Positions 43,698 through 64,000 of a stretch of 64,000 bases of DNA are shown here, piece by piece (position 1 is the first letter of the stretch; each line of letters begins with the position of its first letter). Under the pieces are notes generated by a model. It was not told where the DNA came from and searched no databases. It saw only the letters and a list, made by a program, of their open reading frames with translations. Both the position numbers and the translations under genes were made by a program. Origin of the DNA: a virus (lineage: Duplodnaviria > Caudoviricetes); IMG/VR virus record IMGVR_UViG_3300020349_000003; one strand, written 5' to 3'.

Positions 43698-46600
43698 CTA
43701 TTTGGAACGAACTGTTGTTGAATACTCGATTCGTTTGATTCTATAATTTGCTCCACTATTACCAGATGCATTTTCACCACCCAATATTGCTTGTGCAGAT
43801 GCACCAGCTCCAGTAGTATCTCCTGCAGCATTAGTAAACTGTACTGTTGGATGAAGGGCATAGAACCCATCAACACTTTGTACTATTCCAAATCCACCAC
43901 TAGTGAGAGTAATATCCTTTACTTGGTCACCAGCAGTTGTCATATTAACAATACCAGTTGCTGTTATATCTCCGATGTCTTCAACAACTAGTGTTGGTGC
44001 AGCAGTATAGTTAGTTCCTGGATTCTGCATAACAAAATCTATTACAGTTGTATTGTATGAAAATTCATATAAGTAACCGTTCACGCCTTTATTAACATCA
44101 CCCGTATTATACGGAACAATATCTTTAAGTTGTAAAATAGAATCTACTGGATTCCAAGAAACAACTGTTCCTCTAACGCCAGAAACAGAACCAGTAACAA
44201 TCTCATTAACACCAAATGATAGACCATTACCCACTGATGGATCTAGGTATAGATTAACAAGTGCCTCATGTTCTACACCATCAGTCAATGTTCCTGCTGC
44301 ACTAATAGTTGCGTATTTAAACGGAATAGCAGCATCTTTAATCTGGTCACCAACTTGGAATAAGGTTGTGTTTTGACCACCAAGTGTTTCTTCAATACCA
44401 TATAACGAACTGTAAATACCACCATCAAGATTAATTTGATTTTCAAATGTTGTACTAGTATTAACCAAATCAATAATACCATCTCCAGCACCATCTAATT
44501 CATCATTATCTTCAAACTTCTTATCTATCATAAGACCGATAGGAACCGTCAAGGTAACAATACCTGGTCCTCCAAGATCATCTAATAGAACGTGGGGATT
44601 AAATCCACCAGTAGCACTATTGGCAACACCTGCATCAAATTGAACGATTGCATCTTCAGTAGATGGTCTACCACCATCAATAAATGCCAATTCATCAACT
44701 TCAAATGTAACTAAAAGTTCTCTTGTAAATTTATTAAAGTCATAAACTTTAGCAATTTTATTACTAGCATTCTCAACCTTTCTAATAACTCTATCACCGA
44801 CATTAAATTCATATGCTGATGAACCATCAGGATTGTTCTGTCCGATATCAAGAATAACTCTTTGGTCATAATTAAAGTTTACACCTCTAGTTAATCCAGA
44901 AAATTTACCTGCAGCCTTATTGGTATAAGCTATAGTTTCCTTATTAAGAATGATTGTACCAGAACCAGGATACGCATCTGTAGAATCAACATATATTGTT
45001 GTATCTGCAGGAGCAACATCTTTAACAAGACCTGTAAGGTAATTAGCACCTGAATTATATGCCTGTCTTGCTCTAGTTTTACGCTTAAGATTAACAAGTT
45101 TGGTGAATATAACTGATGGTGGATTAACATATCCACTACCAGGGTCTGTAACTATTATTTCACTAATAGAACCTTGAGCGATTCTTGCTTCTGCTTTTGC
45201 CCCTATACCTCCACCACCAGTAATTAGAATATAAGGAGGTTCTTCATAATATTCACCAGAATCAACTATAGAAATATTTTTAACTTGTCCTAATGTATCA
45301 ACCGAAGCAGCACCTTCAGCACCTTGTCCACCACCACCTTCAAATATAAGAGTTGGTGGAGTTGAATATTCTCTACCACCATTCATTAAAGAAAGACCAG
45401 TAATTGTTTGTACTATAGGGCTACCAGTAGCACCACTACCTTCTCCACCTAAAATTCTTGCTGTAGCAGCACCAAAATAGTTATCACCCATTTTAGTCAT
45501 CTTAACATAATCAATCTGGCCAGGATTTGCAGCACTTAAAACAATTTCACCTTCTGCTCCACCTGGGAAAATAGATTCTTGTATTGGAAGTGTATCTCCT
45601 TCAAATGTAGGAGAACCATAAAAGCTATTTCCAATTATATAAGGATAAGTGGGATTCCCAGATCCATCCTCAGTCATGAAATATGCATATGTACCGTTAG
45701 GATACTCTGGAGTTACGGCAAATCTACCGTTGTATTCATCAAGAGTTCCTTGATTATCCCAAATATTATCTTCTACTAAATCTCCAAGAACATATCCATC
45801 TTGAACAGTTCTTGTTCCTATTGCAGCAGATGTATAAGCAAAGAAATATAATGCTAATGGTGCATCCACAGGAACGATGAATTTTATCTCTCTGGAAGAA
45901 GCTGTATTGAATCCAGCATTATATGAAGCATACGTTACTTCAGATCCTTCTAACCAATAACTAATACCAACTCCATTATACAAATATGAAGAATCTTGAG
46001 GAGTAGATGATACATGCCACCCATCTTCTGTTGCAGATAATAACATCTGATTGTTATACATCGATGCATCATTCTGTTGGAAAATATATGTATTACCTCT
46101 TAAAAGATTTAAGAATGAAATCTGACTACCATCATAATTGTAAGTACCATTAGCAAGAGTTACTGCATAAGTTACAGTTGCTGGTGTGGTAATTTGTGGT
46201 CTTGCACCTGCTATTTCAGCACCTGTTTTTAATCTATATCCAGTCGATTCCCTTGCAGATACACCACTAGAATTATATCCATAAGGACCATAAATTGGAT
46301 AACCATCATAAGACATACCCAAGATCTTAGAGTGTCCATCAGCATGTCTACTGTAATCTGGTGAAGCACCACCATCATAATAATCAGTAATGTAATAATC
46401 GTTATCTGGTGTATGTGCTTCGACAGTAGGGTCTAAGATCATATAACCTTCATGACCTTCATGACCAGACATATATCTATGATTCTTACAGTAATAGTAA
46501 ATGCGATTAGTCTCATCCTCATTCATTATGAACAGAGGTTGTAACTCAGTCTCATAATCTGTAGATGGTGCTGCACTTGCACCTGTACTATTATAATAAA

Positions 46601-49435: not shown

Positions 49436-49442
49436 TATTTAT
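49436..49442 (-). promoter_or_regulatory. Late promoter ATAAATA
   Basis: Overlaps the stop of the giant gene, 20 nt upstream of the next ATG. Confidence 0.7.
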
Positions 49443-52400
49443 GTTAATACTTCAGGGTCTACTAACTCTTCACCATATAGTGAAAGGTCAGGAGCAGTCC
49501 AATCATCAGGAACTGATGTCTCAACATCAATGTTAGGAGTGTTGTATCCAGTTCCAGCATTATTAATGACCACTCCACCAACACCAACTAGTGCATTAAT
49601 ATCTCCTTCAAAACCAGATATAGAGTCAACTCTAACATTTGGTCTACTTGTGTATCCAGATCCACCTGAAGTGACCTGTACGCTATCGATAAACCCTGAT
49701 GTTAGATTTGCTTGTCCTTGTGCATTCTGTCCGAATACGGAACCAAGATAATCAAATGTGATTAAAGAGTTTGAAGATTCAATAACAGCAACTTCTCTAT
49801 CTGATGTCTCACCTTGGATGTCAATAAAGTCACCAGGTTCGATAGGTGGAATAACTTCAGCAGCATCAACGTCTGCCTCAGAACCAACGTAGGAGAATCC
49901 AACGAATGTAGAACCTACACGAGGAATCTCAGAGAAGATGATACGTGAACCAACCAATTCAAAACCAACGCCTGGTTCCTGAATAACACCGTTAAGTGAA
50001 ACGATGATATTATTCTCAGGTCTAATAGTTGTAGACTGAACACCATCTGTAAGCGTTAGTGAGTAGAATACATCATTACGCTTGAGGTTGAATGACTGAC
50101 GTAAGGAGTCAAACTCGAATGAGATATCATCCAATTGTCTCAACTTACCTACGTAGAATCCTGTGAAGGATGCACCTAGTTCTGGTGGTTCTGTAAACTC
50201 TATAGAGTCAGAGAACGCTGTATATGCGTTAGCTGCACCTGGAGGTTGTAGAATACCATTAACGAATACGAGGAGATGTCCAGCTGGATCTGGTAGGTAC
50301 TGAGTACCATTACCTGTGGTAAGTTTGAACGTAGTTTGAACACCATCAAATCCTTTGAATGCTCGTTTAACACGTGCGAGAAGTGCAACTTTATTTACTA
50401 CGATTGCCTTATAATTATCAGCACTGATAATAGCGTCCTTAGTAACAAACGTTCCTTTAATATCACTTAGATAAACTCTCTTAAGAATACCACTATCACG
50501 TATATCCTGAATTAGAGCAGAACCAACACCAGGTGTCACAACCCTTGTAGTTACGGATGCGTAACCAACTGGGAAGTTATTTCCAACTCCATAATGACCT
50601 ACGAGATCACCATTTGTAAGAGGAGTTCCTTGGAAGTCGGCAATGTACAAGAAGTTATTATCTAAATCAACTTCAGAAATTATTGCGTAATTATCAAAGT
50701 CCTGTATACCACCAACAACTTTGTAAAGTCTGTTACCAACAGTGAATTCATTCAATCCACTGATGATTGCGATACCCAAGCGTGTATATCCAGCAGATGC
50801 GATCCTATCACCAACTGATATATCAAAACCATCAAACTTACTAACTTCAATATATTGTCTGGAAACTTCTGGATAAACAACAGAAGTTGTTTCAAATGAT
50901 CCTTGTAAAGTTTCAGTATCAACTGTCAGAGTACCACCTGTATTATCAAGTACAGCAGCTTCTGTGCGTATGAATGAAGTTGGAGTAGCAGTAGCACCAC
51001 TGGTGTATGCCTTGAATGGAACTGACGCACTGAATGTACCCTTAAGGTCTATAATTTGAATACGATCTGTAATTACACTAATTTGTCCTGTTGGTGGTAA
51101 TTGTGCTCTATCAGACTCAACTACATCAAGAGCTGCAAATGTACCAGCATTAACTATCACATCCACGTATCTATAGTTCTCATCTTCCCATATACTATGA
51201 ACAGTACCTGTTACAGCATTATCAGATACCTTTCTGATAGTCTCACCTACCCAGAATGGTCCATCTGTTATCACAGCATCAAATCTAAATCTCTTATAAA
51301 TCTGAACAATCTGACCTTCATTGACAGTCATGTTTTCTAATTCCGCATATGCACCACTGTTAAGTCCATATAAGTAATCAGAATCATTTAATCCACCACC
51401 CAAACCAACTGGTAGATTTCTAGTTCCATATGTGTAAGTAGGTACAGTAATACCATTATTAATAGTGATATTAGTGTAGAATGTATCTAAACCTAGTTGT
51501 CCTTTTAGGATATCTAAGTTACTTCTGATACATCTAGTTACTGTTTTATTTGAATAGTTTGATGCCGATGCAGAATCAAAGTACTTAATATAACTTGCAG
51601 CAGGTGAAGGTGATGTAAGTGTATCACTTATTGCCTCACTTGTATAAGTTTCTAAAGCACTTAACGCATAGGTCTTAACATTATACTCAGTGTCTGCATA
51701 GAATACTTCACCAAGTTGAGATGTGTATGGGTCAATAGTACCAATAGATAATTTAGCACCCCACATATACATACCACTTGCACCATCACCCAAGTATGAT
51801 AAAGAATTAGTAGCATCATACATTAAGAATTGAGCACGTAATTCACTAAATCCGAATGATATTGTTGTTGTGATATATGCTCTATACCATCCATTACCAT
51901 AAGGTACTGAACCATAAGCATCACCACTTATACCACCTTGAGGTTGGAATAGTGTTCCAGCAGTTCCTGAAGCAAGATCTAAATCAAAGAATACATCTTG
52001 CTGACCAACTGTACCAGCATCCATAACAAGACCAAATCTAACTTTATTAAACTCATCTCCCTTAAAGAATACTGAGAATGTGTACTGTTGATTATCGTCA
52101 TCGGTAGCTGCTCCACCTTCGTCAAACGTATTGTTGGTATCGTCAAACTTGATAGTTCCATCATCCCATGTATCATAAGATGTTAAACTATAGTTTCTGC
52201 TAGTATAGTGGTAACCACTACTTTGGTAAGCAATTAATTTTTCTGCAGTTTGTGTACCATCTGGTGCTTGTGCAAAATCATCACTAATAACAATGTAACC
52301 AGGCATCCAATCACTTCTAATTGCTTCTGGATTTGTGAATAAGTTAGGTGCGGATACTTGACCTTGAATATTAGATTGTATATTCTTAGCAAACGCAATT

Positions 52401-55400
52401 GTTCTAACATTTGCTGGTTTGTTGATCCAAGTATATGGATAACCAACTCCACCTACCTGAACATTTGCTACAACACCAGAGCGTGTTCCTTCTATTTTAT
52501 CATTTGCTTCCCAAGGAGTACCATACCAATTTCCAACAACTAAGAAACTACCTTCACTCTTATATTCAAGAACTACAGCAGAACCACCAGCAGCTCTCTC
52601 ACTAAATATCATCTCACCAACTTGGAAGGCACCCGTAACATTTTCAATTTTAATGTTATGTCCGATGGTTGTATCGCTAATATCAGTTGTAATTAAATCG
52701 TGTACTAAGTTAGTAACAATTGTATTGAGCCAATCATCGTATGCCCAAACACTAGCACCAAACTGCTGTGTTACAAGAGTTGTAATCTCTTCTTTATAGT
52801 AACTCTGGTTATAAAGTAAGTTCTTAGCAGCACCTCTCATTGCCAACTTACCAGGAGCAAGCATATTGAGTGCAAGATCTACTAATTCCCTGAACCTAGT
52901 AACAACTGGACTCATATCAATTGGTAATAATGAATCTCTATATGCAGCTATAGTAGTGTAGTTGAAGTTATATGCTGGAGGAGACTCATTAGAATCTTTA
53001 GTGTATAATCTATTAAGAATTGCATGCTCACCCAACCACTTCATCTGCTCAATAGCATATGTTGTTGCTAATAACTCATCTTCGACGAAGTTAATTTGCA
53101 TTGCAGTGGATAGATAATTTTCCATTGCTGCAATAGTACTATTATTTCCACCTGTTTGTAAGTCAGAAATAACACCCAACATAATAAGACCTATGTCACG
53201 AGCACATGTTGAAACACCGCCTGGTTCTGGATATAAGAATGCGTTGTAAAGAGGACCACCTTCTGCTAATTGGAATTGGAATTCATTAGTTACTAGTGTT
53301 GTTATTTCATCACCAATTGACTTTCTGTTGAAGTACAATCTATCAGCAGAGATTGCATAATCGCTATTTGTAGGAGCAATAATATCGTTAGCAATTTCTA
53401 CTAAACTATCAATTGATTCTTGAACATCAATACAATCACCAGGAGCTATTATTCCATTAGCAGTTGCACTGACAAACGTATGAGCAGCAGTGTTAGTAAT
53501 AGGATAATCTGGTTCCTTATTAACGTTAACAGTTACTGTAGTTGCTGTTACTGCAAGGATCTTAAGGTTTCTACCACTTGCATAATCTTTACCATCAGGA
53601 GTACCAGCAACACCAGAAGGACGTGGATATGTACCATTTGCAGTACCAGTTCCAGGGTCACAAGAGAATGTTAATGAATTATTTTCTATCTGAATATATC
53701 TTCCAACAATAAGTGAATGAGAACCAATTGTGATTTCTAAACTACCTGAAGTTGGACTATATACTGCTCCAGTTGCAGTAAATGGCATTGGAGTTGATTG
53801 TGTAATACCCCAATCACCAACTATAATTTTATCAGTATTCTCATAAGTTAAGTTACCAGTTACCGCTTGCTTCATGTAATGTGCAAGACGTAAATGAGCG
53901 TATGCAGATTGGAATAACTGTAAGCGAATGTGTAAGATAACATCATTAGCACCAAGATATCTCTTAGCAACGTTAACTGTATTAAAGTTACCACCTTGTC
54001 TAAGGTCTTTAATAAACTCACTAAGAATTAATGCTAAGTCAGTCTTACACTGTAAAGTACCATTACCACTACCATCAGCGTTTCTAGGCATATCCAAAAG
54101 AAGATCTGGATATAAAGTTAACATATCATGTGATGCTTTATCTACAATAGGACCAGCATTTGCTTCAACTAGATCTGCAGCATCTTGGAATCTATACTTA
54201 TTATCACCACCAATTTGAGTTGCGTAGATAATATCATCTGTTGCATTGTGTAGTGAAATTGGGAATGTTTCTTCCAAGAATGCATATACACGACCTCCAA
54301 GGAATTCATTTTCTGGATCTGAAGTTAATTTTGATATTAAACCAAGATGGTCTGTAGGTGATGTTGCATTAGCAGATTCTAAAGTATCAGTAACTATATC
54401 AATTAAGTTTTCTACAGTTGCTTGTACATCTACACAATCCGCTACACTGTAATCCATAACAGTAACACAATCAGTTACTGCAGAAACAAATGAATGCTTT
54501 GTTAAGACCTTCTTAATTGCACCAGGGTCTGCACTTGAGAATGTATGAGTACTTGAAGGACTGTATATAACGTTATTGCTAGAAGCATTACCAGTATATG
54601 TGTGAACATAATCACCACCAGTTACAACTGCTGCTCTCTTAATACAGTTAGTTGCATATGTTTTACCAGTTACGAATGTATGTGTAGTAACGTTGGTAGA
54701 AGGTGTTATATCTAAAACTTGAACTTGGAAGGTATATGATGTCAATCCTGTAGATAGAACTTTCAACCACTTACCAGAAACAGGGTCAGTAGCACGTGGA
54801 TATCTATGCTCAGTTGCATTACCATCCTTAGTACATGTGAAGGTTAATGAGTTATCATCAAACTTAACATACTCACCTGCATCCATATTATGAACAACAT
54901 TAGTTGTAACAGTCATTATTCCTGTCCAACCACTATATGTTATTCCAGTTGGTGTATACTTATCATATACTGTATAGAAAGCATGTTCTGTAGTATTGCT
55001 AATAGCACCATTAGATACGTCAATAGTAACAGAGGTTGAAGTTGTAGCAGTAATAGGATGGGACTTATTATATCCCCAGTCAGATGTACGAGGATAATAG
55101 TGAATAGTACTACCACCATCTTGAGCACAAATGAATCCAAATGCCTGTTTAGCAATCTTAATACCATCACCTATACTAAGTTCATGAGCACCAATATCAA
55201 TGGTTAATGCTCCAGTGTTAGGATTGTATGCTGTTGTTGAACCAGCTGCTAATGAAGGATTGTATCCTTTAATAGGAGACTTACCAACATTAACTTTAAT
55301 CATACCATTCTGTGCTCTAACACCATTAGTTGTAGAACTTAAGAAAGCATGAGTAGAAGTGTCTGAAGATATTCCTACATTAACTTCAAATGTATCATTG

Positions 55401-58400
55401 GTCTTATTTGAAATAGCTAACCATCTTCCACTTGCAGGGTCAGTTGCTCTTGGATACTTATGGTCTGTTGTATATCCATCTAAGTTACATCTAAAGGTTA
55501 ATGACTCATCAACAAGTTGGATGTAATCTCCATTACTAAGTCCATGACCAGTCAGTGTAATTGTCATTACACCTGTTGAAGGAACAAATGCAGCGTTACT
55601 AGCAGTACCTGAACTGTAATATACATCAGTTACAGGAATTGATTTCTCAGCACCGTAAGGATCTGTTGCACGTGGATATGTCTTAGTAGCAGTATTGCCA
55701 TCCATATCACAAGTAAATTGTAAAGTATTATTCTGTATAACAATACTAGAACCTTTACGCATTCCGTGTTGACCAATTGTTAAGGTCATATCACCTGTTG
55801 ATGCATCGTAAGTAGCAGCAGATGGTGTAAATGTCTGGTTAGTTCCAGCCGTTCCTACATTAACTGTTATTGAGGTAGCGTCTGTGGCAGTAACTGCCAT
55901 TTCTTTACCAGCAGTACGAACATCATGTCCAGGTCTAGGATAAGACTTGATGGATTGGTTATTATCCATCGTACATGTAAATCTAAGAGACTCATTATCA
56001 ATGGTTACAAAATCATCAGTTGTAATATCATGAGCAAGAAGATTTATTTGCATCAAGCCAGTACTTGGATCGTATGTTGCACTATCTGGATTATATGGTT
56101 TATAGTTTTTATTGAATGAAGTAGGACCAACGTTAACAGTAAATGAGTTTGTATCAAACTTAGTAATTGGTAATACTTGCTTAGATGAAGGATCTGTTGT
56201 ACGTGGATACTTATGATTTGAACCCCTATCATCATATTCACATGTCATGGTCAATCCATGATCATCAATAGATATTGCTTTACCTTTCTTTGTAAAGCAT
56301 CCACCCTTAGCACCTGTAAGAGTATGTGTATAAGCACCACCAGTTCTAATTACAGCACGAGTTAATCCATTTGCTACCGCAGATTGGAATTGGTGAGTAG
56401 TAGTATTAGAAGAAGTACCGACATTAACAACAAAGGTATCTTTAGTAACACTAGATACTAGCAAATATGTACCGCTAGATGGGTCAGTAGAACGTGGATA
56501 TGTATGATCAGTCTGATAGTTATCTTGTAAACAACGGAATGTTATTGAACCATCGTCAAATTTAACCATATCCCCATTTTCAAATCCATGATTAGGAACT
56601 GTTACAGTCATTGAACCAGTACCAGGAGTAAATGCAGCAGCAGTTATAGTGAACTTCTCACCACCAGGAACGAATTCGTGTGTATAATCACCACCAAGAG
56701 TAAATGCTTTATCTACTGTTAGTCCACCTTTCCAAACGTGAGTGTATTGTCCACCACACTTAATAGCATCTGCAGAAGCAGACTGGAATGCATGAGTTGA
56801 AGTATTTGAAGATATACCAACATCAACTGTAATTACACCAGTTGGTCTCTTCATACTATTTGCAACAAATGATACAAATGTATGAGTTGATGTATCGCTA
56901 GACTTACCAATAAAGACATCAAACGTATCTGTCTGAACGTTATCTAATGGTAACCATTCAAAGTAAGATGGGTCTGTACGTCTTGGATATGCATGGTTAG
57001 TAGCATCACCATCTTTAGCACAAGTAAATGTTACTGCATTTTCATCCAATCTAACTTTATCATTTGCCTTAATTAATCCGTTAGCGGTTGCTGCTACCCA
57101 TACATGAGTTGTATTGTTAGAAATAGGTTGATCACCAAATGCACTTCCAACAGTCAAATTGAAACTGTTTGCACTTGTGCGAAGAATTGGGAAGAATCTT
57201 CCACTAGCAAAGTCACTAGGTCTTGGATATGAATGGTTAGTAGCATTACCATCTTCAGCACAAGTAAAGACTAAAGAATTATCAGCAATCTTAACCATGT
57301 CACCAGTTACAAATCCATGAGCAGTAGATGTTATTTGCAATTCACCTGTTGCTGGATTAAATGCTGTACCAGTTTCTGCAGTCTTTGTAGTTGGAGCAGT
57401 TAATCCATGACTAGCCATAGTTATGGTCATCATACCTGTGGTTGGATTATATCCTGCTAATGTTGGAGTATGTGAAGTAGTTACAACATTTTGAACAGCA
57501 GTTGCAGTGTTGTATGCATAGTCAGCACCACCAGGAGCATTAGAACCAGATGCACGAGGATATGTCTTATCTGTTGTTTGACCATCAAGATCACAACGGA
57601 ATGTTAATGAATCTTGCTCAATGTATACAGAATCACCAGCTCTTGTAATTGCATTTTGAACACAACTTACAAATGTGTGAGTGTAATCACCACCAGTAAT
57701 TACAGCACCTGTTAGAGATGAATGATAGTTATGAGTACCAGAATGACTAATTGCCGTTCCTGGTGACTGGTTAACGTTTACAGTAATGGTTGTTGCATCC
57801 TTAGCAGTAATATTAAGTGCAGTATTATATGCATAGTCTTCATTATCAGTTGTATTAGCACCATATGATCTTGGATATGACTTCTGAGTACTGTATCCAT
57901 CTCCACCATAATCACAAACAAATGTGATTGAATTATCTTTTAATCTTATGCTAGTTCCAACTTCTAAACTATGTGTACCAATTGTAATTACTAAGTTTCC
58001 AGATACAGCATCGTAAGTTGCATTAGAAACATTGAAATCTAATTGTGGTGAAGTTCCTACGTTAACATCAAATGTATTATCAGTAACGTTAGAAATTAAC
58101 ATCCACTTTCCAGACTGAGGGTCGGTAGATCTTGGATAGGTATGATTGCTACTGTGTTGGTCTAATGAACATGTTAAAGATAATGCATTATCAGCAACCT
58201 TAATCTTATCTCCAATTACAAATCCATGATTAGGAATAGTAACTGTCATTACACCAGTTGTTGCAATATAATTTACATCAGTTGCTGTATGATTCGTAGC
58301 ATCTTTAATCCAATGATTACCAACAGTCAAGTCCATGATACCCGTAGCAGGATCATAGGTAGCAGCAGAAGGAGTATATCCGTGGAACTTACTCGGACCA

Positions 58401-61400
58401 ACATTAACAGTAAAGGCATTATTATGAACCTTAACACCGTTAGTTACTCCAGAAACAAATGTATGTGTATAAGCACCAAATACAGTTCTACCAACAAATA
58501 CATCAAATGTAGTACTAGTAGAAGCTTCTACAACACTCCATCCTCTTCTAAACACTGGGTCAGTCTTACGAGGATATGCATGGTTTGTAGCATTACCATC
58601 TTTAGTACAACTAAAGGTAATAGCACCTTCTTCAAATCTAACCATCTCACCACTAACTTTCATACAAGGGTTAGAAGTTACACCAACACATGTATGCTCA
58701 CTAAGGTCTTGGGACTTACCAATAAACAAATCAAATGTATTTGCAGTTCTATTCTGTGCAGGTAACCATTGGTCTCTTGCAGGGTCACCTGAACGTGGGT
58801 AGTAGTGGTCTGTTGTCTCATCATCCAATCCACAACGGAATATGAATGCTCCATCATTAAGTTGAACAAGGTTACCATTGTATACCTGATGAGCAGATGA
58901 TGTAATGGTTAACATTCCAGTAGCAGGGTCATAAGCAGCACCAGTACAATTTCTAGTACTTGGAGCATTTAACTGTGAACCGATAGTAACGGTCATCATA
59001 CCTGTTAATGGGTTATATGATGCATCAGATGCAGTCTTATCAACTTCAGAAATATCAATAACGTCAACAGCAGTACCACGAGCAGGGTCAGTTAATCTTG
59101 GATATGCGTGGTCAGTTGATTGACCGTCCATATTACATGAAAAGAGGAATGCTCCATCTCTAAGTCTAATGCTATCACCAACCATTAAATTAGGATGTCC
59201 ACCAAATCCAGGAGAACCAGGAGCAGAAGAAGTAATTACTAATGAACCAGTTACAGGAGTATAGTTTGCACTAGAAACATCATATGCAATATTATGTGTC
59301 TTACCAACATCTAAAGTAATTGTATTATCCTTATGAATAATACCATTAGGATCTGCAGACTTAAATGTATGTAATGAAAGGTCAGGAGATACACCAACAT
59401 TTACATCAAATGTATTAGTAGTTACATTAACAATCTTATGTAATCTACCGCTAGATGGGTCTGTTGAACGTGGATATCTATGTTGAGTTATATTGTTATC
59501 TAACAAGCACTCAAATGTAATTGATTCATCAACAATACGAACCTTATCACCATAGGCAAACCCATGATTAAAGACGGTAATTGTTAATAGACCTGAGTCA
59601 GGTGTATATGATGCAGCATTTGCTGTATGAGAAGTTCCTTCATATAGAATAGGTACACTATCCTGATAGATGAAATCATTTTCTCTTGGATATGTCTTAA
59701 CATCTTGTAGTCCATCCATAGTACATCTGAATGGAAGACTACCTGTAGCAACCTTAATATTTGTACCAGCTCTCAATCTATGCTCACCAATAGTCATCTT
59801 AAGAAGACCTGTTGAACCACTATATGTTGCAGCAGTTGGGTTAAAAATTACATCTGGTGTTTTACCAACATCAAGTGAGAATGTTGTTGAGTCAACAACA
59901 GTAACATCTAACCAACCTTGACTTGCATGGTCAGAAGATCTTGGATACTTATGCTCTGACCTGTTTTGGTCCATAGAACATGTAAATGTTAGAGCTTCGT
60001 CTTCAATCTGAAGTTTAGAAGTTGATGTAAGATTATGAGCACCACTAGTTGTACATGTAAGGATACCAGTAACAGGGTTATATCCACCACCTGAGATTGA
60101 TAATGATGTATTACTAAACAAACCATGTGATCCTTTTAATATCTTCAATTCACCAGTTGAAGCATTATATTCTGCTCCTGTAGGTGTAAACTTAGTTGCA
60201 GCACTACCACTAGATTCTGTAATACTGGTATCAAATTTCTGTTTATGTCCATGATGACCTTGTACATCCCAAGCATCATTGGTTATGATATATCTTAAAA
60301 TTTGATTTAATTTACCGTATGTCCAAACAGTTTCTACAATTTCTTGTTCAACGTTAAGTAGTTTAACATTGTTTACATCGACTCTATCAACATAGTATGA
60401 TGCAGCATCCCAAATCTTAGAATTACTACCATTACGTAAATCGTATGCAACAGACTTACAAATATCTTTAACATCATCCTGACAATTTGCACTACCATTA
60501 ATGACAGTGAAATCTGGGAATTTTTGTTCTAGTAAATATACTGCCTCATGAGCAATAAATTCTAGGTTAGATTCAATCAATGTAGCAGCATTATAATACC
60601 TATTTGTATTTCCAACAAATCCTTTTTGAACTGCTCTACCAACGTTAACTGTAATCGTTGTACCAGTTACTGAAGTAATTGCTATAGCAGTGTTATGTAC
60701 TGGATCTGAAGTTCTAGGATATCTGTGCTCAGTTGCATTATTATCCTTATCGCAAGTAAATGGTAATTTATTAGCACCAATCGTTACAGTATTAGATGTT
60801 GTGAAACTATGAGATCCAATAGTCATGACTAAGATACCAGTCTCACCATCATAAGTTGCAGCAGTAACATCCTTTATAGTGCCATCATTGAATGTAAGAG
60901 CAGCATTTGAAGTGCCAGGTACAAATGTGTGATCTCCAACATAACGAACAGTAGAAATTATAGCATCATTATTAAAGTATTCTCCCTTTGTAAATGACTC
61001 ACTACCAGACCAATCCTGTACCCATTGCTCACCATCTTTACCATCAAAGTGAAGTAACATCTTAGTATTAGTATCACCTTGGAATATACCAGCTAAAGGT
61101 GAGAATGCAGTAGAATATCTAATATTATCAGAAATTCTTACTTCATCAATATGACCAATATATCCAGTTGAGAAAGCATAACCAACACCAATAAAGAGTG
61201 GTTTAGCAACATATGTTGTATTATCAGTTCCTGTACCAACTTCAACACCATCAATATACATCTTACCAGTTGTACCTGTTCTAGTATAAGCAACGTGTGC
61301 CCATGTATCAGCAGATAAAGTTGTTCCAACAGAAGTTACAAGATCTGCATTATTAACATTCCAACGAACTTGTCCACTTTCACAATATACTCTAAATGCA

Positions 61401-64000
61401 ACTTCATTAGCACTTGATACTCTTGTGTCAAAAATATCAATAGTTCCACTTAATGAAGAAGAATCAGGACGTATATAAAATTCAAAAGTAAAGTCACCAG
61501 TACCAAAAGCAATCTCATTAGTTGTTTGGCAGAAAATATAATCTGTTGTTCCAGCAGTTAATTGTAATGAAGCATTACCATACTTCTTCTGTGTAGTATC
61601 AATCTGAGCACTACCAGCAAAATCGAAATCAAAATAGTCTTCACCATTAGACTTAGTTCTACCAATCTTACCAAGATATACTGTATTACGTGCTTGGTTA
61701 AATCCAATAACTTCTGCTTTAGTATCTCTAGATCTTATAATTTGACCAGAACTAAAGAATCCAGTTCCTTCTCTATCATAGAAAGACATCTTTCTAACTT
61801 TACCATCTTCACCAGTTACAAACTCATTAGTGTTATTACCATAATCAATCTTATAATTACGGATTTCTTCATTAAGTTGTAATGTTCCAGTTAGATTATT
61901 GAATGGAATAATGTAATTATTAATCTGTTCATTAGATGGGAAGTTACCATTATATCCAGTTGTATTATCAGTAAAGTCAACTATACTTACTGCAGATGAT
62001 GCAATATCATCTAGAACAACGTTTGGATAAGTCTGAGATGTAATCCTATTGAATAGTAACCCAAAGAATGAAGAACCAGGAGAGATATCAACTTGCCCAA
62101 TAAACTCCTGAGTTACAGGATCTTGATAAGCAGATGTTGCAGTAATCTGTGCAATAACCCCAGACTGTGCTCCATAGATAACATCATTTAACTGAATATC
62201 AAATAATCCAGGAGAGGATGTATATGTACCTGCAGTCTTACTTAAAGTTAGTTGATCAGTAACCTCAATCTTAGTACTATAAAGTGGAGTATTGTCTTGC
62301 TGATTCTGAGCAGTTGTACCAAGAACATTTCTTACAACTGTAAGTGATGTTGATTCTGCATTATCTACAGTGCTTATAAGAGTAAAGATTTCAGATCCTA
62401 CCTGATAGTTAATATTTGGTGTAAAAGTACCTGTAGGTACTGGTTGGTTAGTTGATGCAGTTGGATCAATAACTTCAAATACAGTTGTTGAAGGACCGAT
62501 AGAATATCTCAACTTAGCAATAGGCATCTCTTGCCCAGTTTCTAAGTTAACTGATTCAATTTTTGCAGTATTACCTTCTAAGTTTGTTATATTTTCACCG
62601 AAAGTAAACAATCCAATACTTCCTACTGGAGTTATAGATGCTAAGTTTCCAGCAAATCCTGTTGCTACAACGTTACATAATTCACCAAGTACAAAACTAC
62701 CATCAGTTATAAAACCAGTAACTACTGTACCAACTACTTTCAATACTGTAAATCTAGCATCAGATGAACTACCTTTAATTACATTATTAAGACCAGGATA
62801 AATTCCACTAGCATTATTAAATACCATCTCATATCCTTGGATAGGTGCTATGGTAACAGAAGCATATTTAACACTTGCTGGTGGTTTTGGAGGCTCACTG
62901 AATACAATAGAGTCTTGTTGAATTGTAAATGCAGTCTCTGGGTTCTGTACAACACCGTTTAAAACAACCATTAACTGATTGGCATTAGCAACTACAGTAC
63001 CACCATTAACTGTTAATGGGAACGAAGTCTTAATACCATCAAACTGTTCTGATATATCATCAACTCTTTGTACAACAGAAGTTAGAATATTCTCGGAAGA
63101 TGTTAATCTCTTCTGTCTGAATAGTACTTCTGTATTATTAAACTCAGTATAAATTGGTTCAACTAGAGCAAAATTCTGAATATTTGGAACGATTGCTTCT
63201 TGTGCAAGTTCTACAGACTTAGTGAGTTCAAAGAATGTATCCTTATTAGGAATTTGTCCATACTCATTCAAGTTCAACTCACCAAACACCTTAAATGATG
63301 CAGGGTGAACGTTTCTAATTAGAATCTCTTTCCACTCACTAATAGAAACAGCAGACTTAACAGCATAAGAGAAGTCCTGATAGTAGTAAGAGTCTTGAAT
63401 CTTTTGAATAATTTCGGATGGTTTACCAACATCATCAATAAACTGACCTGTTGTCTTAGTGATAGAACCAATATCTAGAACACCACGAGCAAACTTAAGG
63501 TCGCTAATAGTACCAGAAGACTTGGATATAACACCAGTTATTTTTTGAAGTTCTGCAAATTCACCAGTATAGTCAACAATCTTAAGAATTCTAGGTCCAA
63601 TCTGCCAACCAAAGTTAATTGAAACATATCCTTGTGCTGTTGCTGTTTCTAAAGAGTCACCTTGATATACAAGTTCACCTTCAAGGAAAGTAGAAGTGAC
63701 AACGTTTGCAGTAGCAGCACCACCAAATGATTCAGTCAAGATACTTTGACGACCATCACCAGCGTTAACAAATGATAATGCATCACCCAATTCTGCGTTC
63801 TGTGGAGTAATAGCAATCTTTAATTGGTCATCTTCTAAAGAATTTGCTGCACCAGAAATAGCATAGTATGTGGTATTTGGATTAAGACGACCTGTTGCAC
63901 CAGCAGCTAGAGGATAGTCTGCACCATCTCCAGTATCAGTTACAGCAACACTAATTTCAGAACCACTAACAATACCATGTGGATAAGCAAACTGTAATAA
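49439..64000 (-). CDS. g7: Giant gp7-like baseplate wedge initiator / virion protein, 5'-truncated (>4,850 aa)
   Basis: The frame stays open from 64000 (LLQFAYPHG...) through 63790. It carries the gp7-type motif IQDSYYYQDFSY.VKS....W......VHPA.FKVFGE, a LamG-like domain (~61040-61630), helical repeats, 20 YPR domains and a jelly-roll-like domain (~51740-52345). Confidence 0.85.
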   Translation of the reverse strand, partial: LLQFAYPHGIVSGSEISVAVTDTGDGADYPLAAGATGRLNPNTTYYAISGAANSLEDDQLKIAITPQNAELGDALSFVNAGDGRQSILTESFGGAATANVVTSTFLEGELVYQGDSLETATAQGYVSINFGWQIGPRILKIVDYTGEFAELQKITGVISKSSGTISDLKFARGVLDIGSITKTTGQFIDDVGKPSEIIQKIQDSYYYQDFSYAVKSAVSISEWKEILIRNVHPASFKVFGELNLNEYGQIPNKDTFFELTKSVELAQEAIVPNIQNFALVEPIYTEFNNTEVLFRQKRLTSSENILTSVVQRVDDISEQFDGIKTSFPLTVNGGTVVANANQLMVVLNGVVQNPETAFTIQQDSIVFSEPPKPPASVKYASVTIAPIQGYEMVFNNASGIYPGLNNVIKGSSSDARFTVLKVVGTVVTGFITDGSFVLGELCNVVATGFAGNLASITPVGSIGLFTFGENITNLEGNTAKIESVNLETGQEMPIAKLRYSIGPSTTVFEVIDPTASTNQPVPTGTFTPNINYQVGSEIFTLISTVDNAESTSLTVVRNVLGTTAQNQQDNTPLYSTKIEVTDQLTLSKTAGTYTSSPGLFDIQLNDVIYGAQSGVIAQITATSAYQDPVTQEFIGQVDISPGSSFFGLLFNRITSQTYPNVVLDDIASSAVSIVDFTDNTTGYNGNFPSNEQINNYIIPFNNLTGTLQLNEEIRNYKIDYGNNTNEFVTGEDGKVRKMSFYDREGTGFFSSGQIIRSRDTKAEVIGFNQARNTVYLGKIGRTKSNGEDYFDFDFAGSAQIDTTQKKYGNASLQLTAGTTDYIFCQTTNEIAFGTGDFTFEFYIRPDSSSLSGTIDIFDTRVSSANEVAFRVYCESGQVRWNVNNADLVTSVGTTLSADTWAHVAYTRTGTTGKMYIDGVEVGTGTDNTTYVAKPLFIGVGYAFSTGYIGHIDEVRISDNIRYSTAFSPLAGIFQGDTNTKMLLHFDGKDGEQWVQDWSGSESFTKGEYFNNDAIISTVRYVGDHTFVPGTSNAALTFNDGTIKDVTAATYDGETGILVMTIGSHSFTTSNTVTIGANKLPFTCDKDNNATEHRYPRTSDPVHNTAIAITSVTGTTITVNVGRAVQKGFVGNTNRYYNAATLIESNLEFIAHEAVYLLEQKFPDFTVINGSANCQDDVKDICKSVAYDLRNGSNSKIWDAASYYVDRVDVNNVKLLNVEQEIVETVWTYGKLNQILRYIITNDAWDVQGHHGHKQKFDTSITESSGSAATKFTPTGAEYNASTGELKILKGSHGLFSNTSLSISGGGYNPVTGILTCTTSGAHNLTSTSKLQIEDEALTFTCSMDQNRSEHKYPRSSDHASQGWLDVTVVDSTTFSLDVGKTPDVIFNPTAATYSGSTGLLKMTIGEHRLRAGTNIKVATGSLPFRCTMDGLQDVKTYPRENDFIYQDSVPILYEGTSHTANAASYTPDSGLLTITVFNHGFAYGDKVRIVDESITFECLLDNNITQHRYPRSTDPSSGRLHKIVNVTTNTFDVNVGVSPDLSLHTFKSADPNGIIHKDNTITLDVGKTHNIAYDVSSANYTPVTGSLVITSSAPGSPGFGGHPNLMVGDSIRLRDGAFLFSCNMDGQSTDHAYPRLTDPARGTAVDVIDISEVDKTASDASYNPLTGMMTVTIGSQLNAPSTRNCTGAAYDPATGMLTITSSAHQVYNGNLVQLNDGAFIFRCGLDDETTDHYYPRSGDPARDQWLPAQNRTANTFDLFIGKSQDLSEHTCVGVTSNPCMKVSGEMVRFEEGAITFSCTKDGNATNHAYPRKTDPVFRRGWSVVEASTSTTFDVFVGRTVFGAYTHTFVSGVTNGVKVHNNAFTVNVGPSKFHGYTPSAATYDPATGIMDLTVGNHWIKDATNHTATDVNYIATTGVMTVTIPNHGFVIGDKIKVADNALSLTCSLDQHSSNHTYPRSTDPQSGKWMLISNVTDNTFDVNVGTSPQLDFNVSNATYDAVSGNLVITIGTHSLEVGTSIRLKDNSITFVCDYGGDGYSTQKSYPRSYGANTTDNEDYAYNTALNITAKDATTITVNVNQSPGTAISHSGTHNYHSSLTGAVITGGDYTHTFVSCVQNAITRAGDSVYIEQDSLTFRCDLDGQTTDKTYPRASGSNAPGGADYAYNTATAVQNVVTTSHTPTLAGYNPTTGMMTITMASHGLTAPTTKTAETGTAFNPATGELQITSTAHGFVTGDMVKIADNSLVFTCAEDGNATNHSYPRPSDFASGRFFPILRTSANSFNLTVGSAFGDQPISNNTTHVWVAATANGLIKANDKVRLDENAVTFTCAKDGDATNHAYPRRTDPSYFEWLPLDNVQTDTFDVFIGKSSDTSTHTFVSFVANSMKRPTGVITVDVGISSNTSTHAFQSASADAIKCGGQYTHVWKGGLTVDKAFTLGGDYTHEFVPGGEKFTITAAAFTPGTGSMTVTVPNHGFENGDMVKFDDGSITFRCLQDNYQTDHTYPRSTDPSSGTYLLVSSVTKDTFVVNVGTSSNTTTHQFQSAVANGLTRAVIRTGGAYTHTLTGAKGGCFTKKGKAISIDDHGLTMTCEYDDRGSNHKYPRTTDPSSKQVLPITKFDTNSFTVNVGPTSFNKNYKPYNPDSATYDPSTGLMQINLLAHDITTDDFVTIDNESLRFTCTMDNNQSIKSYPRPGHDVRTAGKEMAVTATDATSITVNVGTAGTNQTFTPSAATYDASTGDMTLTIGQHGMRKGSSIVIQNNTLQFTCDMDGNTATKTYPRATDPYGAEKSIPVTDVYYSSGTASNAAFVPSTGVMTITLTGHGLSNGDYIQLVDESLTFRCNLDGYTTDHKYPRATDPASGRWLAISNKTNDTFEVNVGISSDTSTHAFLSSTTNGVRAQNGMIKVNVGKSPIKGYNPSLAAGSTTAYNPNTGALTIDIGAHELSIGDGIKIAKQAFGFICAQDGGSTIHYYPRTSDWGYNKSHPITATTSTSVTIDVSNGAISNTTEHAFYTVYDKYTPTGITYSGWTGIMTVTTNVVHNMDAGEYVKFDDNSLTFTCTKDGNATEHRYPRATDPVSGKWLKVLSTGLTSYTFQVQVLDITPSTNVTTHTFVTGKTYATNCIKRAAVVTGGDYVHTYTGNASSNNVIYSPSSTHTFSSADPGAIKKVLTKHSFVSAVTDCVTVMDYSVADCVDVQATVENLIDIVTDTLESANATSPTDHLGLISKLTSDPENEFLGGRVYAFLEETFPISLHNATDDIIYATQIGGDNKYRFQDAADLVEANAGPIVDKASHDMLTLYPDLLLDMPRNADGSGNGTLQCKTDLALILSEFIKDLRQGGNFNTVNVAKRYLGANDVILHIRLQLFQSAYAHLRLAHYMKQAVTGNLTYENTDKIIVGDWGITQSTPMPFTATGAVYSPTSGSLEITIGSHSLIVGRYIQIENNSLTFSCDPGTGTANGTYPRPSGVAGTPDGKDYASGRNLKILAVTATTVTVNVNKEPDYPITNTAAHTFVSATANGIIAPGDCIDVQESIDSLVEIANDIIAPTNSDYAISADRLYFNRKSIGDEITTLVTNEFQFQLAEGGPLYNAFLYPEPGGVSTCARDIGLIMLGVISDLQTGGNNSTIAAMENYLSTAMQINFVEDELLATTYAIEQMKWLGEHAILNRLYTKDSNESPPAYNFNYTTIAAYRDSLLPIDMSPVVTRFRELVDLALNMLAPGKLAMRGAAKNLLYNQSYYKEEITTLVTQQFGASVWAYDDWLNTIVTNLVHDLITTDISDTTIGHNIKIENVTGAFQVGEMIFSERAAGGSAVVLEYKSEGSFLVVGNWYGTPWEANDKIEGTRSGVVANVQVGGVGYPYTWINKPANVRTIAFAKNIQSNIQGQVSAPNLFTNPEAIRSDWMPGYIVISDDFAQAPDGTQTAEKLIAYQSSGYHYTSRNYSLTSYDTWDDGTIKFDDTNNTFDEGGAATDDDNQQYTFSVFFKGDEFNKVRFGLVMDAGTVGQQDVFFDLDLASGTAGTLFQPQGGISGDAYGSVPYGNGWYRAYITTTISFGFSELRAQFLMYDATNSLSYLGDGASGMYMWGAKLSIGTIDPYTSQLGEVFYADTEYNVKTYALSALETYTSEAISDTLTSPSPAASYIKYFDSASASNYSNKTVTRCIRSNLDILKGQLGLDTFYTNITINNGITVPTYTYGTRNLPVGLGGGLNDSDYLYGLNSGAYAELENMTVNEGQIVQIYKRFRFDAVITDGPFWVGETIRKVSDNAVTGTVHSIWEDENYRYVDVIVNAGTFAALDVVESDRAQLPPTGQISVITDRIQIIDLKGTFSASVPFKAYTSGATATPTSFIRTEAAVLDNTGGTLTVDTETLQGSFETTSVVYPEVSRQYIEVSKFDGFDISVGDRIASAGYTRLGIAIISGLNEFTVGNRLYKVVGGIQDFDNYAIISEVDLDNNFLYIADFQGTPLTNGDLVGHYGVGNNFPVGYASVTTRVVTPGVGSALIQDIRDSGILKRVYLSDIKGTFVTKDAIISADNYKAIVVNKVALLARVKRAFKGFDGVQTTFKLTTGNGTQYLPDPAGHLLVFVNGILQPPGAANAYTAFSDSIEFTEPPELGASFTGFYVGKLRQLDDISFEFDSLRQSFNLKRNDVFYSLTLTDGVQSTTIRPENNIIVSLNGVIQEPGVGFELVGSRIIFSEIPRVGSTFVGFSYVGSEADVDAAEVIPPIEPGDFIDIQGETSDREVAVIESSNSLITFDYLGSVFGQNAQGQANLTSGFIDSVQVTSGGSGYTSRPNVRVDSISGFEGDINALVGVGGVVINNAGTGYNTPNIDVETSVPDDWTAPDLSLYGEELVDPEVLT
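54458..60195 (-). repeat. 18 recursively nested ~100-aa Cys/His/YPR domains
   Basis: Hand count of 18 opening segments (Y.P.TG.L/M.T...H), 18 core segments (F.C..D......YPR) and 18 closing segments (H.F.S), in balanced nested order. Confidence 0.85.

What the first reader, a model, noticed from the sequence alone, without database searches (positions are those of the whole stretch)
54458..60195. Recursively nested ('matryoshka') domain tree in the giant gp7-like protein: 18 domains, 7 levels deep
Seen: an intact reference copy of the domain (47416-47726, in another gene) has four ordered parts: A = Y.P.TG.M.MT...H, B = G..I.I...SLTF.C..D....H.YPR..DP, C = I....T.T.TV.V, D = HTF.SA...AV. In the giant protein the parts do not run ABCD-ABCD. 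My hand parse reads A1[A2 B2 C2[A3 B3 C3a[4]C3b[A5 B5 C5a[A6[7]B6 C6 D6]C5b[A8[A9 B9 C9[10]D9]B8 C8a[A11[12]B11 C11 D11]C8b D8]D5]D3a[13]D3b]D2]B1 C1[A14 B14 C14[A15 B15 C15a[16]C15b[A17 B17 C17 D17a[18]D17b]D15]D14]D1. All 18 A, 18 B and 18 D segments pair like balanced parentheses. Back-to-back openers (e.g. ...GSQLNAP-STRNCTGAAYDPATG) and stacked closers (STHAF..GGQYTHVW..GGDYTHEF at ~56660-56800; four closers at ~54458-54700) are directly visible. Only four insertion loops are used: A|B, mid-C, C|D and mid-D. A1 and B1 are ~1,280 aa apart. The deepest path is 1>2>3>5>8>11>12. Inference: one polypeptide folds into a branched, dendrimer-like multivalent structure on the baseplate instead of a linear fibre. 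It must have grown by repeated domain-into-domain insertion, not tandem duplication. I know of no description of this, but I cannot search the literature.
Basis: partly seen in the sequence, partly recalled or inferred. Interest (0 to 1): 0.95.

Follow-up and report, generated by a model that had tools for sequence, protein, structure and literature searches.

The report
Russian-doll barrel domains in cyanophage gp7
A giant baseplate protein of a T4-like marine cyanophage holds 18 copies of one small beta-barrel domain inserted into each other's loops, seven levels deep, which is deeper than the six-level record reported for any protein; it shows that a virus particle protein can grow by repeated domain-in-domain insertion.

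Summary
The giant ORF (window 49439-64000, minus strand, cut off by the window's end) carries 18 copies of a ~100-residue beta-barrel at residues 1270-3183 (nt 54452-60193). There are 7 whole copies and 11 in two or three pieces. The pieces tile the stretch without gap or overlap and obey a bracket grammar 7 levels deep (1>2>3>5>8>11>12).

I cut out whole profile matches, rejoined the flanks and searched again. This rebuilt every split copy as a full-length match (74-129 bits). The same routine collapses the P-SSM3 orthologue completely (11 copies) and 41 of 119 metagenomic homologues, with up to 29 copies and 10 levels. Shuffled piece orders never collapse.

At this exact site Syn9 has no barrel and S-IOM18 has one. 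AlphaFold2 folds a single copy (pLDDT 97) and a nested pair (pLDDT 95, pTM 0.86) with confidence.

The fold resembles the E1 FCCH barrel and the phage endosialidase barrel (Z about 8). No Pfam family passes its threshold.

The principle is already known from the Si3 insertion of cyanobacterial RNA polymerase (6 levels). I found no paper describing it for phage particles. This scan reported the same build earlier in other cyanophage genomes. The function, probably multivalent surface adhesion, is inferred only.

The parts
49439..64000 (-). Giant gp7-like baseplate protein. 4853 aa lie in the window and the N-terminus lies beyond the window's end. A 90%-identical metagenomic protein (P0004) has 3262 further residues upstream.
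   Evidence: synteny with gp6 / gp7-like / gp9-like / gp8 in S-IOM18 and Syn9
54452..60193 (-). The whole 18-barrel tree, which is also the span of domain 1 (level 1). Pieces: aa 1270-1303 (nt 60092-60193), aa 2566-2633 (nt 56102-56305), aa 3166-3183 (nt 54452-54505). It hosts domain 2 in the A|B loop and domain 14 in the C|D loop.
   Evidence: (90.2 bits, profile 1-101); the tree is one insertion relative to Syn9
56306..60091 (-). Domain 2 (level 2). Pieces nt 59846-60091 and 56306-56362. It hosts domain 3, and perhaps domain 13.
   Evidence: round 6, 86.8 bits
56657..59845 (-). Domain 3 (level 3). Pieces nt 59630-59845, 59285-59338 and 56657-56722. It hosts domain 4 (mid-C) and domain 5 (C|D).
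   Evidence: round 5, 74.6 bits
59339..59629 (-). Domain 4, whole copy.
   Evidence: 116.9 bits
56723..59284 (-). Domain 5 (level 4). Pieces nt 59036-59284, 58379-58432 and 56723-56761. It hosts domain 6 (mid-C) and domain 8 (C|D).
   Evidence: round 4, 86.4 bits
58433..59035 (-). Domain 6. Pieces nt 58952-59035 and 58433-58663. It hosts domain 7 in the A|B loop.
   Evidence: 107 bits
58664..58951 (-). Domain 7, whole copy.
56762..58378 (-). Domain 8 (level 5). Pieces nt 58292-58378, 57473-57646 and 56762-56851. It hosts domain 9 (A|B) and domain 11 (mid-C).
   Evidence: round 3, 95.1 bits
57647..58291 (-). Domain 9. Pieces nt 58037-58291 and 57647-57700. It hosts domain 10 in the C|D loop.
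   Evidence: 125.4 bits
57701..58036 (-). Domain 10, whole copy.
56852..57472 (-). Domain 11 (level 6). Pieces nt 57380-57472 and 56852-57073. It hosts domain 12 in the A|B loop.
   Evidence: 119.5 bits; AlphaFold2 model of 11[12] with pLDDT 94.6 and pTM 0.86
57074..57379 (-). Domain 12 (level 7), whole copy.
56363..56656 (-). Domain 13, whole copy. Its host is domain 3 (last hairpin) or domain 2 (C|D loop).
   Evidence: AlphaFold2 single-domain model with pLDDT 97.2
54506..56101 (-). Domain 14 (level 2). Pieces nt 55835-56101 and 54506-54562. It hosts domain 15.
   Evidence: 90.6 bits, profile 2-101
54563..55834 (-). Domain 15 (level 3). Pieces nt 55613-55834, 55265-55312 and 54563-54619. It hosts domain 16 (mid-C) and domain 17 (C|D).
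   Evidence: 97.0 bits, profile 2-97
55313..55612 (-). Domain 16, whole copy.
54620..55264 (-). Domain 17. Pieces nt 54968-55264 and 54620-54634. It perhaps hosts domain 18 in its last hairpin.
   Evidence: 94.8 bits
54635..54967 (-). Domain 18, whole copy.
60212..60622 (-). Helical stretch H1 (aa 1127-1263), directly before the tree.
   Evidence: 46% identical to Syn9 4384-4519; weak Phycobilisome match, E 0.06
53801..54451 (-). Helical stretch H2 (aa 3184-3400), directly after the tree. It starts with a conserved D-C-x-D-V motif.
   Evidence: 53% identical to Syn9 4527-4741, which follows Syn9 4519 after 7 residues
53441..53788 (-). Domain 19, a single whole barrel at the matching site of the next helical repeat. 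It is absent in Syn9.
60635..60931 (-). Domain 0, a circularly permuted copy (order D-A-B-C) between the LamG domain and H1.
47421..47726 (-). Whole barrel copy in the neighbouring baseplate wedge gene (P0002, aa 153-254).
   Evidence: 138.5 bits

Best explanation
Residues 1270-3183 of the gp7-like baseplate protein are one tree of 18 homologous beta-barrel domains of about 100 residues. The domains are built by recursive domain-in-domain insertion. Each barrel is a self-contained unit that can be spliced into one of four surface loops of another barrel: after strand 3, before strand 7, between strands 7 and 8, and in the last hairpin. An interrupted barrel is completed only when the chain returns, so opening segments pile up and closing segments come back in reverse order. 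The whole tree is itself a single insert in a helical host domain.

Inferred: inner copies can fold first and outer ones last, so domain 1 can close only after about 1900 further residues have been made. The result is a branched cluster, not a linear fibre.

The tree most likely grew by copying a whole barrel, or a nested sub-tree, into loop-coding DNA. This is inferred from the comparison with orthologues.

Function is inferred at about 0.3. If gp7 is present in six copies per baseplate as in T4, the six trees would display about a hundred weak sugar- or surface-binding barrels at the baseplate rim for first, reversible attachment to the picocyanobacterial cell surface.
For: Grammar. There are 18 A and 18 B segments. 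15 D segments are found by profile and 3 more by the closer motif. The 18 domains tile 1270-3183 exactly. All 18 rebuilt domains align over the whole profile and keep the invariant Cys, Y-P-R and D-segment His. The invariant columns were set on 110 whole copies.

Peeling. Six automatic rounds and four hand-bounded domains rebuild every split copy at 74-129 bits. The profile was built from this phage alone. It collapses 1240 residues of the P-SSM3 orthologue to 90 residues of flank in five rounds, and the outermost halves there lie 1045 residues apart and score 110 bits. All 121 proteins peeled, 119 of them metagenomic homologues, have at least one split barrel. 41 of the 119 homologues leave no partial match, and the largest has 29 barrels on 10 levels.

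Control. The native piece order leaves 0 residues. All 30 shuffled orders leave 286-1392 residues.

Natural excision series. Syn9 joins H1 to H2 directly, S-IOM18 has one barrel at exactly that junction, and this phage has 18.

Clean presence/absence of one whole barrel, 95-101 residues, occurs between relatives whose flanks are 65-82% identical.

Structure. A single copy gives pLDDT 97.2 and pTM 0.88, all beta. The nested pair 11[12] gives pLDDT 94.6 and pTM 0.86. The isolated 30-residue opener has pLDDT 95-97 and the same three strands as in a whole copy. Two single-barrel chains align to that model from residue 1 to residue 213 with 64-69 aligned residues at 2.4-3.0 A. So opener and closer lie in one barrel in the model (rows 36 and 44).

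Partner test. Couplings learned on whole copies rank the nested partner above other partners of the same class in the same protein. The mean rank is 0.39 against 0.5 by chance, and 65 proteins fall below 0.5 against 15 above.

Function lead. The best fold matches are the E1 FCCH barrel (Z 8.6), the phi92 endosialidase barrel (Z 7.9) and several phage tail and neck decoration domains. Pfam gives sub-threshold hits to End_beta_barrel, E1_FCCH and a carbohydrate-binding family. The same barrel occurs in cyanophage tail fibre and baseplate proteins.
Against: No coordinates or contact map were available, so the contact between far-apart segments is shown only indirectly. Any opener joined to any closer of this family gives a full-length profile match, so rebuilding alone does not prove which segment pairs with which. 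That rests on the non-crossing grammar and on a modest coupling signal (0.39, against 0.10-0.21 for whole copies cut in silico). Exchange of strands between parent and child, as reported for some Si3 domains (PMC11515920), is not excluded. The closers of the outer domains are divergent, and three of them are seen only by motif. Domains 1, 14, 15 and 17 needed hand-set boundaries. The hosts of copies 13 and 18 are ambiguous. No polymorphism was found inside a barrel tree; the three found lie in helical host regions. The fold matches (Z about 8) lie in the range the tool says is common for unrelated barrels. The function has no direct support.
Confidence: 0.88

Rival explanations
1. A chain of tandem or circularly permuted repeats. 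In this reading each segment pairs with its neighbours in sequence (strand-swapped or daisy-chained barrels), so the bracket order is only apparent.
For: The barrel tolerates circular permutation. Domain 0 and an insert in P0052 read D-A-B-C. Some Si3 domains exchange strands (PMC11515920).
Against: The order seen is A A B C D B C D, not A B C D A B C D. An opener followed directly by a complete copy has no neighbour to pair with. The AlphaFold2 model of such a unit is confident and places opener and closer in one barrel. The piece order closes completely, which shuffled orders never do.
Confidence: 0.05
2. The A, B, C and D segments are independent short beta modules of a fibrous, possibly trimeric, fold. 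They can follow each other in any order, as in irregular phage fibre repeats.
For: Records call the Syn9 orthologue a putative fibre. Phage fibres do hold irregular short repeats (my own knowledge).
Against: The counts are exactly balanced and the order is fully nested, here and in 41 homologues with no leftover. Contiguous A-B-C-D copies fold as one compact barrel at pLDDT 97. The invariant residues are spread over the A, B and D segments.
Confidence: 0.03
3. An assembly artefact: repeated DNA was misjoined and produced a scrambled order.
For: Repeat-rich genes are prone to misassembly (general knowledge).
Against: An independent database protein is 99.7% identical over 3171 residues. Another is 90% identical and colinear over 2625 residues without any indel. 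The copies are only 40-56% identical in protein, too far apart to misassemble. The cultured phage P-SSM3 shows the same build.
Confidence: 0.01

Closest known systems
Si3 insertion of cyanobacterial and plastid RNA polymerase beta' (RpoC2): recursively inserted sandwich-barrel hybrid motif (HABAS) domains
   Same: One small beta domain family is inserted into loops of its own copies. Some copies are continuous and others are built from distant chain segments. Hosts can carry more than one insert. The whole array is itself an insert in another domain (PMC10895346, PMC11515920, PMC13114784).
   Different: Si3 has 8-9 domains in about 640 residues on 6 levels. This tree has 18 domains in 1914 residues on 7 levels, and homologues reach 29 domains on 10 levels. 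No RNA polymerase chain appeared among the fold or profile matches, so shared ancestry is not shown. The context is a virion baseplate protein, not an enzyme's trigger loop.
Beta-barrel domain of phage endosialidases (Pfam PF12195; PDB 4hiz) and the FCCH domain of ubiquitin-activating enzyme E1 (PF16190; PDB 4p22, 2v31)
   Same: These are the best fold matches over the whole barrel. FCCH gives Z 8.6 with 78 residues at 2.5 A, and the endosialidase barrel gives Z 7.9 with 79 residues at 2.4 A. A few copies give weak Pfam hits to both families. One ESM Atlas cluster of the same shape carries PF16190 in 28% of its members. Both known barrels are themselves inserts in larger domains (my own knowledge).
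   Different: All Pfam scores are far below the curated cut-offs (17 bits against 35). Foldseek E-values are only about 0.04. The invariant Y-P-R, Cys and two His are a signature of the phage family. Neither known barrel is nested in itself.
T4 gp7 baseplate wedge protein and its giant cyanophage counterparts (Syn9 gp101, S-IOM18 SWYG_00065, P-SSM3 PRAG_00216)
   Same: Gene order is gp6 / giant gene / gp9-10-like / gp8. The regions outside the tree are 50-69% identical. PHROG families annotated as baseplate wedge subunit and virion structural protein match.
   Different: Syn9 and S-IOM18 lack the tree, with 0 and 1 barrel at the site. Direct homology to T4 gp7 itself was not tested here.

Membership tests
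Recursive self-insertion architecture (Si3 type) | Copies of one homologous domain family act both as host and as insert | tested here: met
   All 18 rebuilt domains match one profile full length at 74-129 bits
Recursive self-insertion architecture (Si3 type) | Host domains are interrupted and completed after the insert, over more than one level, with non-crossing order | tested here: met
   7 levels, exact tiling and full closure. Shuffled orders do not close.
Recursive self-insertion architecture (Si3 type) | Distant segments form one folded domain in three dimensions | tested here: inconclusive
   The AlphaFold2 model of 11[12] is confident, and single barrels align across residues 1-213. 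No contact map or solved structure exists.
SBHM / HABAS domain family (CATH 2.40.50.100) | Fold or sequence similarity to the RNA polymerase Si3 domains | tested here: inconclusive
   No RNA polymerase chain appears among the 50 listed fold matches or in the profile search of PDB sequences. Absence from a list does not exclude the family.
Pfam PF12195 End_beta_barrel / PF16190 E1_FCCH | Score above the curated gathering threshold | tested here: not met
   The best hit is 17.1 bits against a cut-off of 35. 7 and 6 of 110 copies hit at E of 0.005 or more. The whole protein gave no such hit.
Pfam PF12195 End_beta_barrel / PF16190 E1_FCCH | Same barrel fold | tested here: inconclusive
   Z 7.9-8.6 over 78-79 residues at 2.4-2.5 A. 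The tool warns that Z under 8 is common for unrelated models.
gp7-like baseplate wedge protein of T4-like cyanophages | Homology and gene order shared with annotated gp7-like genes | tested here: met
   50-69% identity outside the tree with the S-IOM18, Syn9 and P-SSM3 genes annotated 'similar to gp7', in the same neighbourhood; PHROG hits
gp7-like baseplate wedge protein of T4-like cyanophages | Presence in the virion baseplate | not testable with these tools
   Rests only on record annotations ('structural protein')
Phycobilisome protein fold (PF00502) for the helical host of the tree | Score above the gathering threshold | tested here: inconclusive
   The uninterrupted Syn9 counterpart scores 30.5 bits against a cut-off of 22.2. 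This phage's H1 alone scores 13.7 bits and H2 gives no hit.

The most novel reading that the evidence does not exclude
Cyanophage gp7 trees are the deepest and largest recursively self-inserted domain arrays known in any protein. There are 7 levels here and up to 10 levels with 29 barrels in relatives, against 6 levels in the published record holder. They form a branched, lectin-like bush on the baseplate. Its size varies between phages from 0 to 29 barrels because the barrel behaves as a copy-and-paste module at the DNA level, which tunes host attachment.
Probability: 0.35. Interest if true: 0.85.

Novelty: new variant of a known kind. Interest (0 to 1): 0.78.

Why it matters
Recursive insertion of a domain into copies of itself was known from essentially one system, the Si3 insertion of cyanobacterial RNA polymerase. 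A 2026 survey of 2.7 million domains names its six levels as its most complex case. The cyanophage trees show the same principle in an unrelated setting, with a barrel for which no link to Si3 was found. They are far larger, with 18 domains and 7 levels here and 29 domains and 10 levels in relatives, and they branch.

The trees come with a natural series of 0, 1, 11 and 18 barrels at one site. That makes the growth process directly studiable. They pose a sharp folding problem, because the outermost barrel can close only after about 1900 residues have been made.

These are among the largest genes of some of the ocean's most abundant viruses. If the barrels bind the host surface, tree size may be a dial for host range. 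Domain annotation tools that expect contiguous domains will miss most of these copies.

Tried and rejected
Complex prediction. I sent the three pieces of domain 1 as separate chains. The result was no verdict: score 0.16 against a mark of 0.34, fragments folded without alignment. It counts neither for nor against.

Sequence searches of the Protein Data Bank. The single copy, the whole tree and the 110-copy profile gave only chance-level hits (a TRIM71 NHL repeat through a G-x-Y-P-R-like word, and iota-carbonic anhydrase at E 0.001).

Pfam on the whole protein found only a LamG domain.

Megablast of the tree DNA against phage records found no match. tblastn with the repeat region only found repeats in non-orthologous places.

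Nearest-neighbour test by segment. I asked whether the A, B, C and D parts of a domain share the same closest paralogue. The segments are too short, so the test is uninformative. Hints that sub-trees 2-3-4 and 14-15-16 are duplicates (3~15, 4~16) are weak.

First version of the coupling test. With any domain as decoy it was biased against the divergent closers of outer domains (rank 0.57). It was replaced by same-class decoys.

The single barrel of S-IOM18 is not specially similar to domain 1. Orthology of the outermost barrel is therefore not claimed.

P0004, at 90% identity, shows no gain or loss of barrels relative to this phage.

No whole genome is held for the window.

Four literature searches for a description in phages found none.

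Full report
WHAT IS THERE. The finding lies in one giant open reading frame on the minus strand, window 49439-64000, with 4853 codons. The frame runs off the window's end. PHROG profiles annotated as virion structural protein, tail fibre and baseplate wedge match it. Its non-repetitive parts are 50-69% identical to the genes annotated 'similar to gp7' in the T4-like cyanophages S-IOM18, Syn9 and P-SSM3. Those genes lie in the same gp6 / giant gene / gp9-10-like / gp8 order. A database protein 90% identical and colinear over 2625 residues carries 3262 more residues upstream, so the full protein is probably about 8100 residues. Pfam sees only a LamG domain, at residues 825-959.

CHECKING THE OBSERVATION. 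I built a profile from eight uninterrupted copies of the repeat. Within residues 1270-3183 the part profiles find 18 A and 18 B segments. They find 15 D segments, and the three missing D segments are visible as the closer motif G-G-x-Y-[TV]-H. The reversed sequence gives nothing above 0.3 bits.

To test the nesting without hand parsing I wrote a peeling routine. It finds full-length profile matches, cuts them out, rejoins the flanks and searches again. Eight copies come out in round 1. Split copies then reappear as full-length matches round after round: domains 6, 9 and 11, then 8, then 5, then 3, then 2. Domains 15, 14, 1 and 17 stalled only because a few linker residues were left behind. With hand-set boundaries they match the profile over positions 2-97, 2-101, 1-101 and 5-96 at 90-97 bits. 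The 18 domains tile 1270-3183 (nt 54452-60193) with no gap or overlap. All keep the invariant Cys, the Y-P-R motif and the D-segment His. Domain 1 consists of residues 1270-1303, 2566-2633 and 3166-3183. The only open detail is whether copies 13 and 18 sit in the last hairpin of domains 3 and 17 or are second inserts in the loops of domains 2 and 15.

IS IT MORE THAN A PARSING GAME? Five lines of evidence say yes.

(a) The profile was built from this phage only. It collapses the tree of the cultured phage P-SSM3 completely. Eleven barrels come out in five rounds, and 1240 residues shrink to 90 residues of flank. The outermost barrel there is made of halves 1045 residues apart and scores 110 bits.

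(b) All 121 proteins peeled have split barrels, 119 of them metagenomic homologues. 41 of the 119 homologues leave no partial match, and 20 reach seven or more levels. The largest (P0006) has 29 barrels on 10 levels spanning 3073 residues.

(c) When the pieces of two fully parsed trees are shuffled, none of 30 orders closes. 286-1392 residues are left, against 0 for the native order.

(d) Nature has done the excision experiment. In Syn9 the helical stretches that flank the tree here (1127-1263 and 3184-3400) are joined with 7 residues between them. S-IOM18 has exactly one barrel at that junction. This phage has eighteen. The tree therefore behaves as one insert whose two ends meet. That is what the model predicts, because both ends belong to domain 1.

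(e) Among the metagenomic relatives there are three clean presence/absence differences of one barrel (95-101 residues), with flanks 65-82% identical.

STRUCTURE. With 110 uninterrupted copies as alignment, AlphaFold2 folds the domain as an all-beta unit of nine strands, with pLDDT 97.2 and pTM 0.88. The natural nested pair 11[12] (213 residues, 40 aligned homologous pairs) gives pLDDT 94.6 and pTM 0.86. Its 30-residue opener has pLDDT 95-97 and the same three strands as in a whole copy. The tool returns no coordinates. However, two solved single barrels (lambda gpJ 491-563 and 7ylr) align to that model from residue 1 to residue 213, with 64-69 residues at 2.4-3.0 A. So the opener and the closing part lie in one barrel in the model. 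The insertion points fall in loops of the model. Over 1085 junctions they cluster at four places.

A coupling model trained on uninterrupted copies ranks the nested partner better than other same-class partners from the same protein. The mean rank is 0.39 against 0.5 by chance, and 65 proteins are below 0.5 against 15 above. The signal is real but modest. Strand exchange between parent and child, as described for some Si3 domains, cannot be excluded.

WHAT THE BARREL IS. No Pfam family passes its threshold. A few copies give weak hits to the endosialidase barrel (PF12195), to E1_FCCH (PF16190) and to a carbohydrate-binding family. The best fold matches are the FCCH barrel of ubiquitin E1 (Z 8.6), the barrel of phage phi92 endosialidase (Z 7.9) and decoration domains of phage necks, tubes and tail tips. 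Foldseek reaches only E of about 0.04. In predicted viral structures the same barrel (TM 0.9 and above) occurs in cyanophage proteins named tail fibre, tail protein and baseplate wedge initiator. I treat it as a cyanophage virion-surface barrel distantly like the endosialidase/FCCH barrels. Membership in those families is not shown.

HOW IT MOST LIKELY WORKS. Shown: the chain topology is a branched tree. Inferred: inner barrels can fold as soon as they are made, and outer ones only when their closers appear. Folding therefore runs inside-out, and the tree hangs from a single stalk on a helical host domain. With six gp7 copies per baseplate, as in T4 (my own knowledge), this would place about a hundred barrels at the rim. 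The barrel's relatives are sugar-binding or decoration modules. So my preferred function is multivalent, weak, reversible adhesion to the cyanobacterial surface, at a probability of about 0.3. Structural bulk or protection are alternatives. Growth is best explained by copying a barrel or a sub-tree into loop-coding DNA. Tandem duplication cannot give the order A A B C D B C D.

COMPARISON WITH WHAT IS KNOWN. Cyanobacterial Si3 has eight sandwich-barrel hybrid motifs, four of them built from distant chain segments (PMC10895346). It is described as recursively inserted HABAS domains (PMC11515920). A 2026 survey of 2.7 million domains calls its six-level nest its most complex case (PMC13114784). 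The principle is therefore known. The phage case is a new variant. No link between this barrel and the Si3 domains was found. It sits in a virion protein, has more than twice the domains, is deeper and is strongly branched. Four literature searches found no description for phage particles. The same build was reported earlier by this scan in other cyanophage genomes, so it is a family trait and not a peculiarity of this window.

VERDICT. The finding is real and striking. It is a new variant of a known kind rather than a new principle. The function is untested.

Noticed in passing
window 60635-60931 (aa 1024-1122): There is a circularly permuted barrel copy with segment order D-A-B-C. Here it lies between the end of the LamG domain and helix stretch H1. 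In S-IOM18 and Syn9 the same permuted copy lies inside the LamG domain, after its first strand. A similar permuted insert is present in P0052 and absent in P0069.
   Followed up: partly
window 53441-54451 and 60212-60622: The tree and the single barrel 19 occupy matching sites of two successive helical repeats. Each site lies just before a conserved D-C-x-D-V helix start. Both sites are empty in Syn9. The uninterrupted Syn9 region passes Pfam's threshold for Phycobilisome protein (30.5 bits), so the host of the tree may be a phycobiliprotein-like fold.
   Followed up: partly
barrel copies throughout 54452-60193: The invariant residues are spread over the separated segments: a His at the end of A, a Cys in B, Y-P-R and Asp after B, and a His in D. 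This could be a metal site that clamps the pieces together. Domain 6 alone lacks the A-segment His.
   Followed up: no
window 47421-47726, in the gene 43698-48182 (-): The neighbouring 1494-aa baseplate wedge protein carries one uninterrupted barrel copy, a YHYH domain (PF14240) and a match to a PHROG family named 'head closure Hc2'.
   Followed up: partly
window 64000 (5' end of the giant ORF): The gene is cut by the window. The 90%-identical protein P0004 has 3262 residues before the first residue seen here, so the protein is probably about 8100 residues long.
   Followed up: partly
proteins P0057/P0084 and P0075/P0110 (metagenomic homologues): One whole barrel of 101 residues is present or absent at the same point of a helical region, between G-x-H-V-A-G and E-T-N-I-V-F. 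The flanks are 71-82% identical.
   Followed up: partly
window 27990-28967: A first-reader note in the scan's index reports a separate four-deep nest of a different module at a tail-fibre C-terminus in this window. I did not look at it.
   Followed up: no
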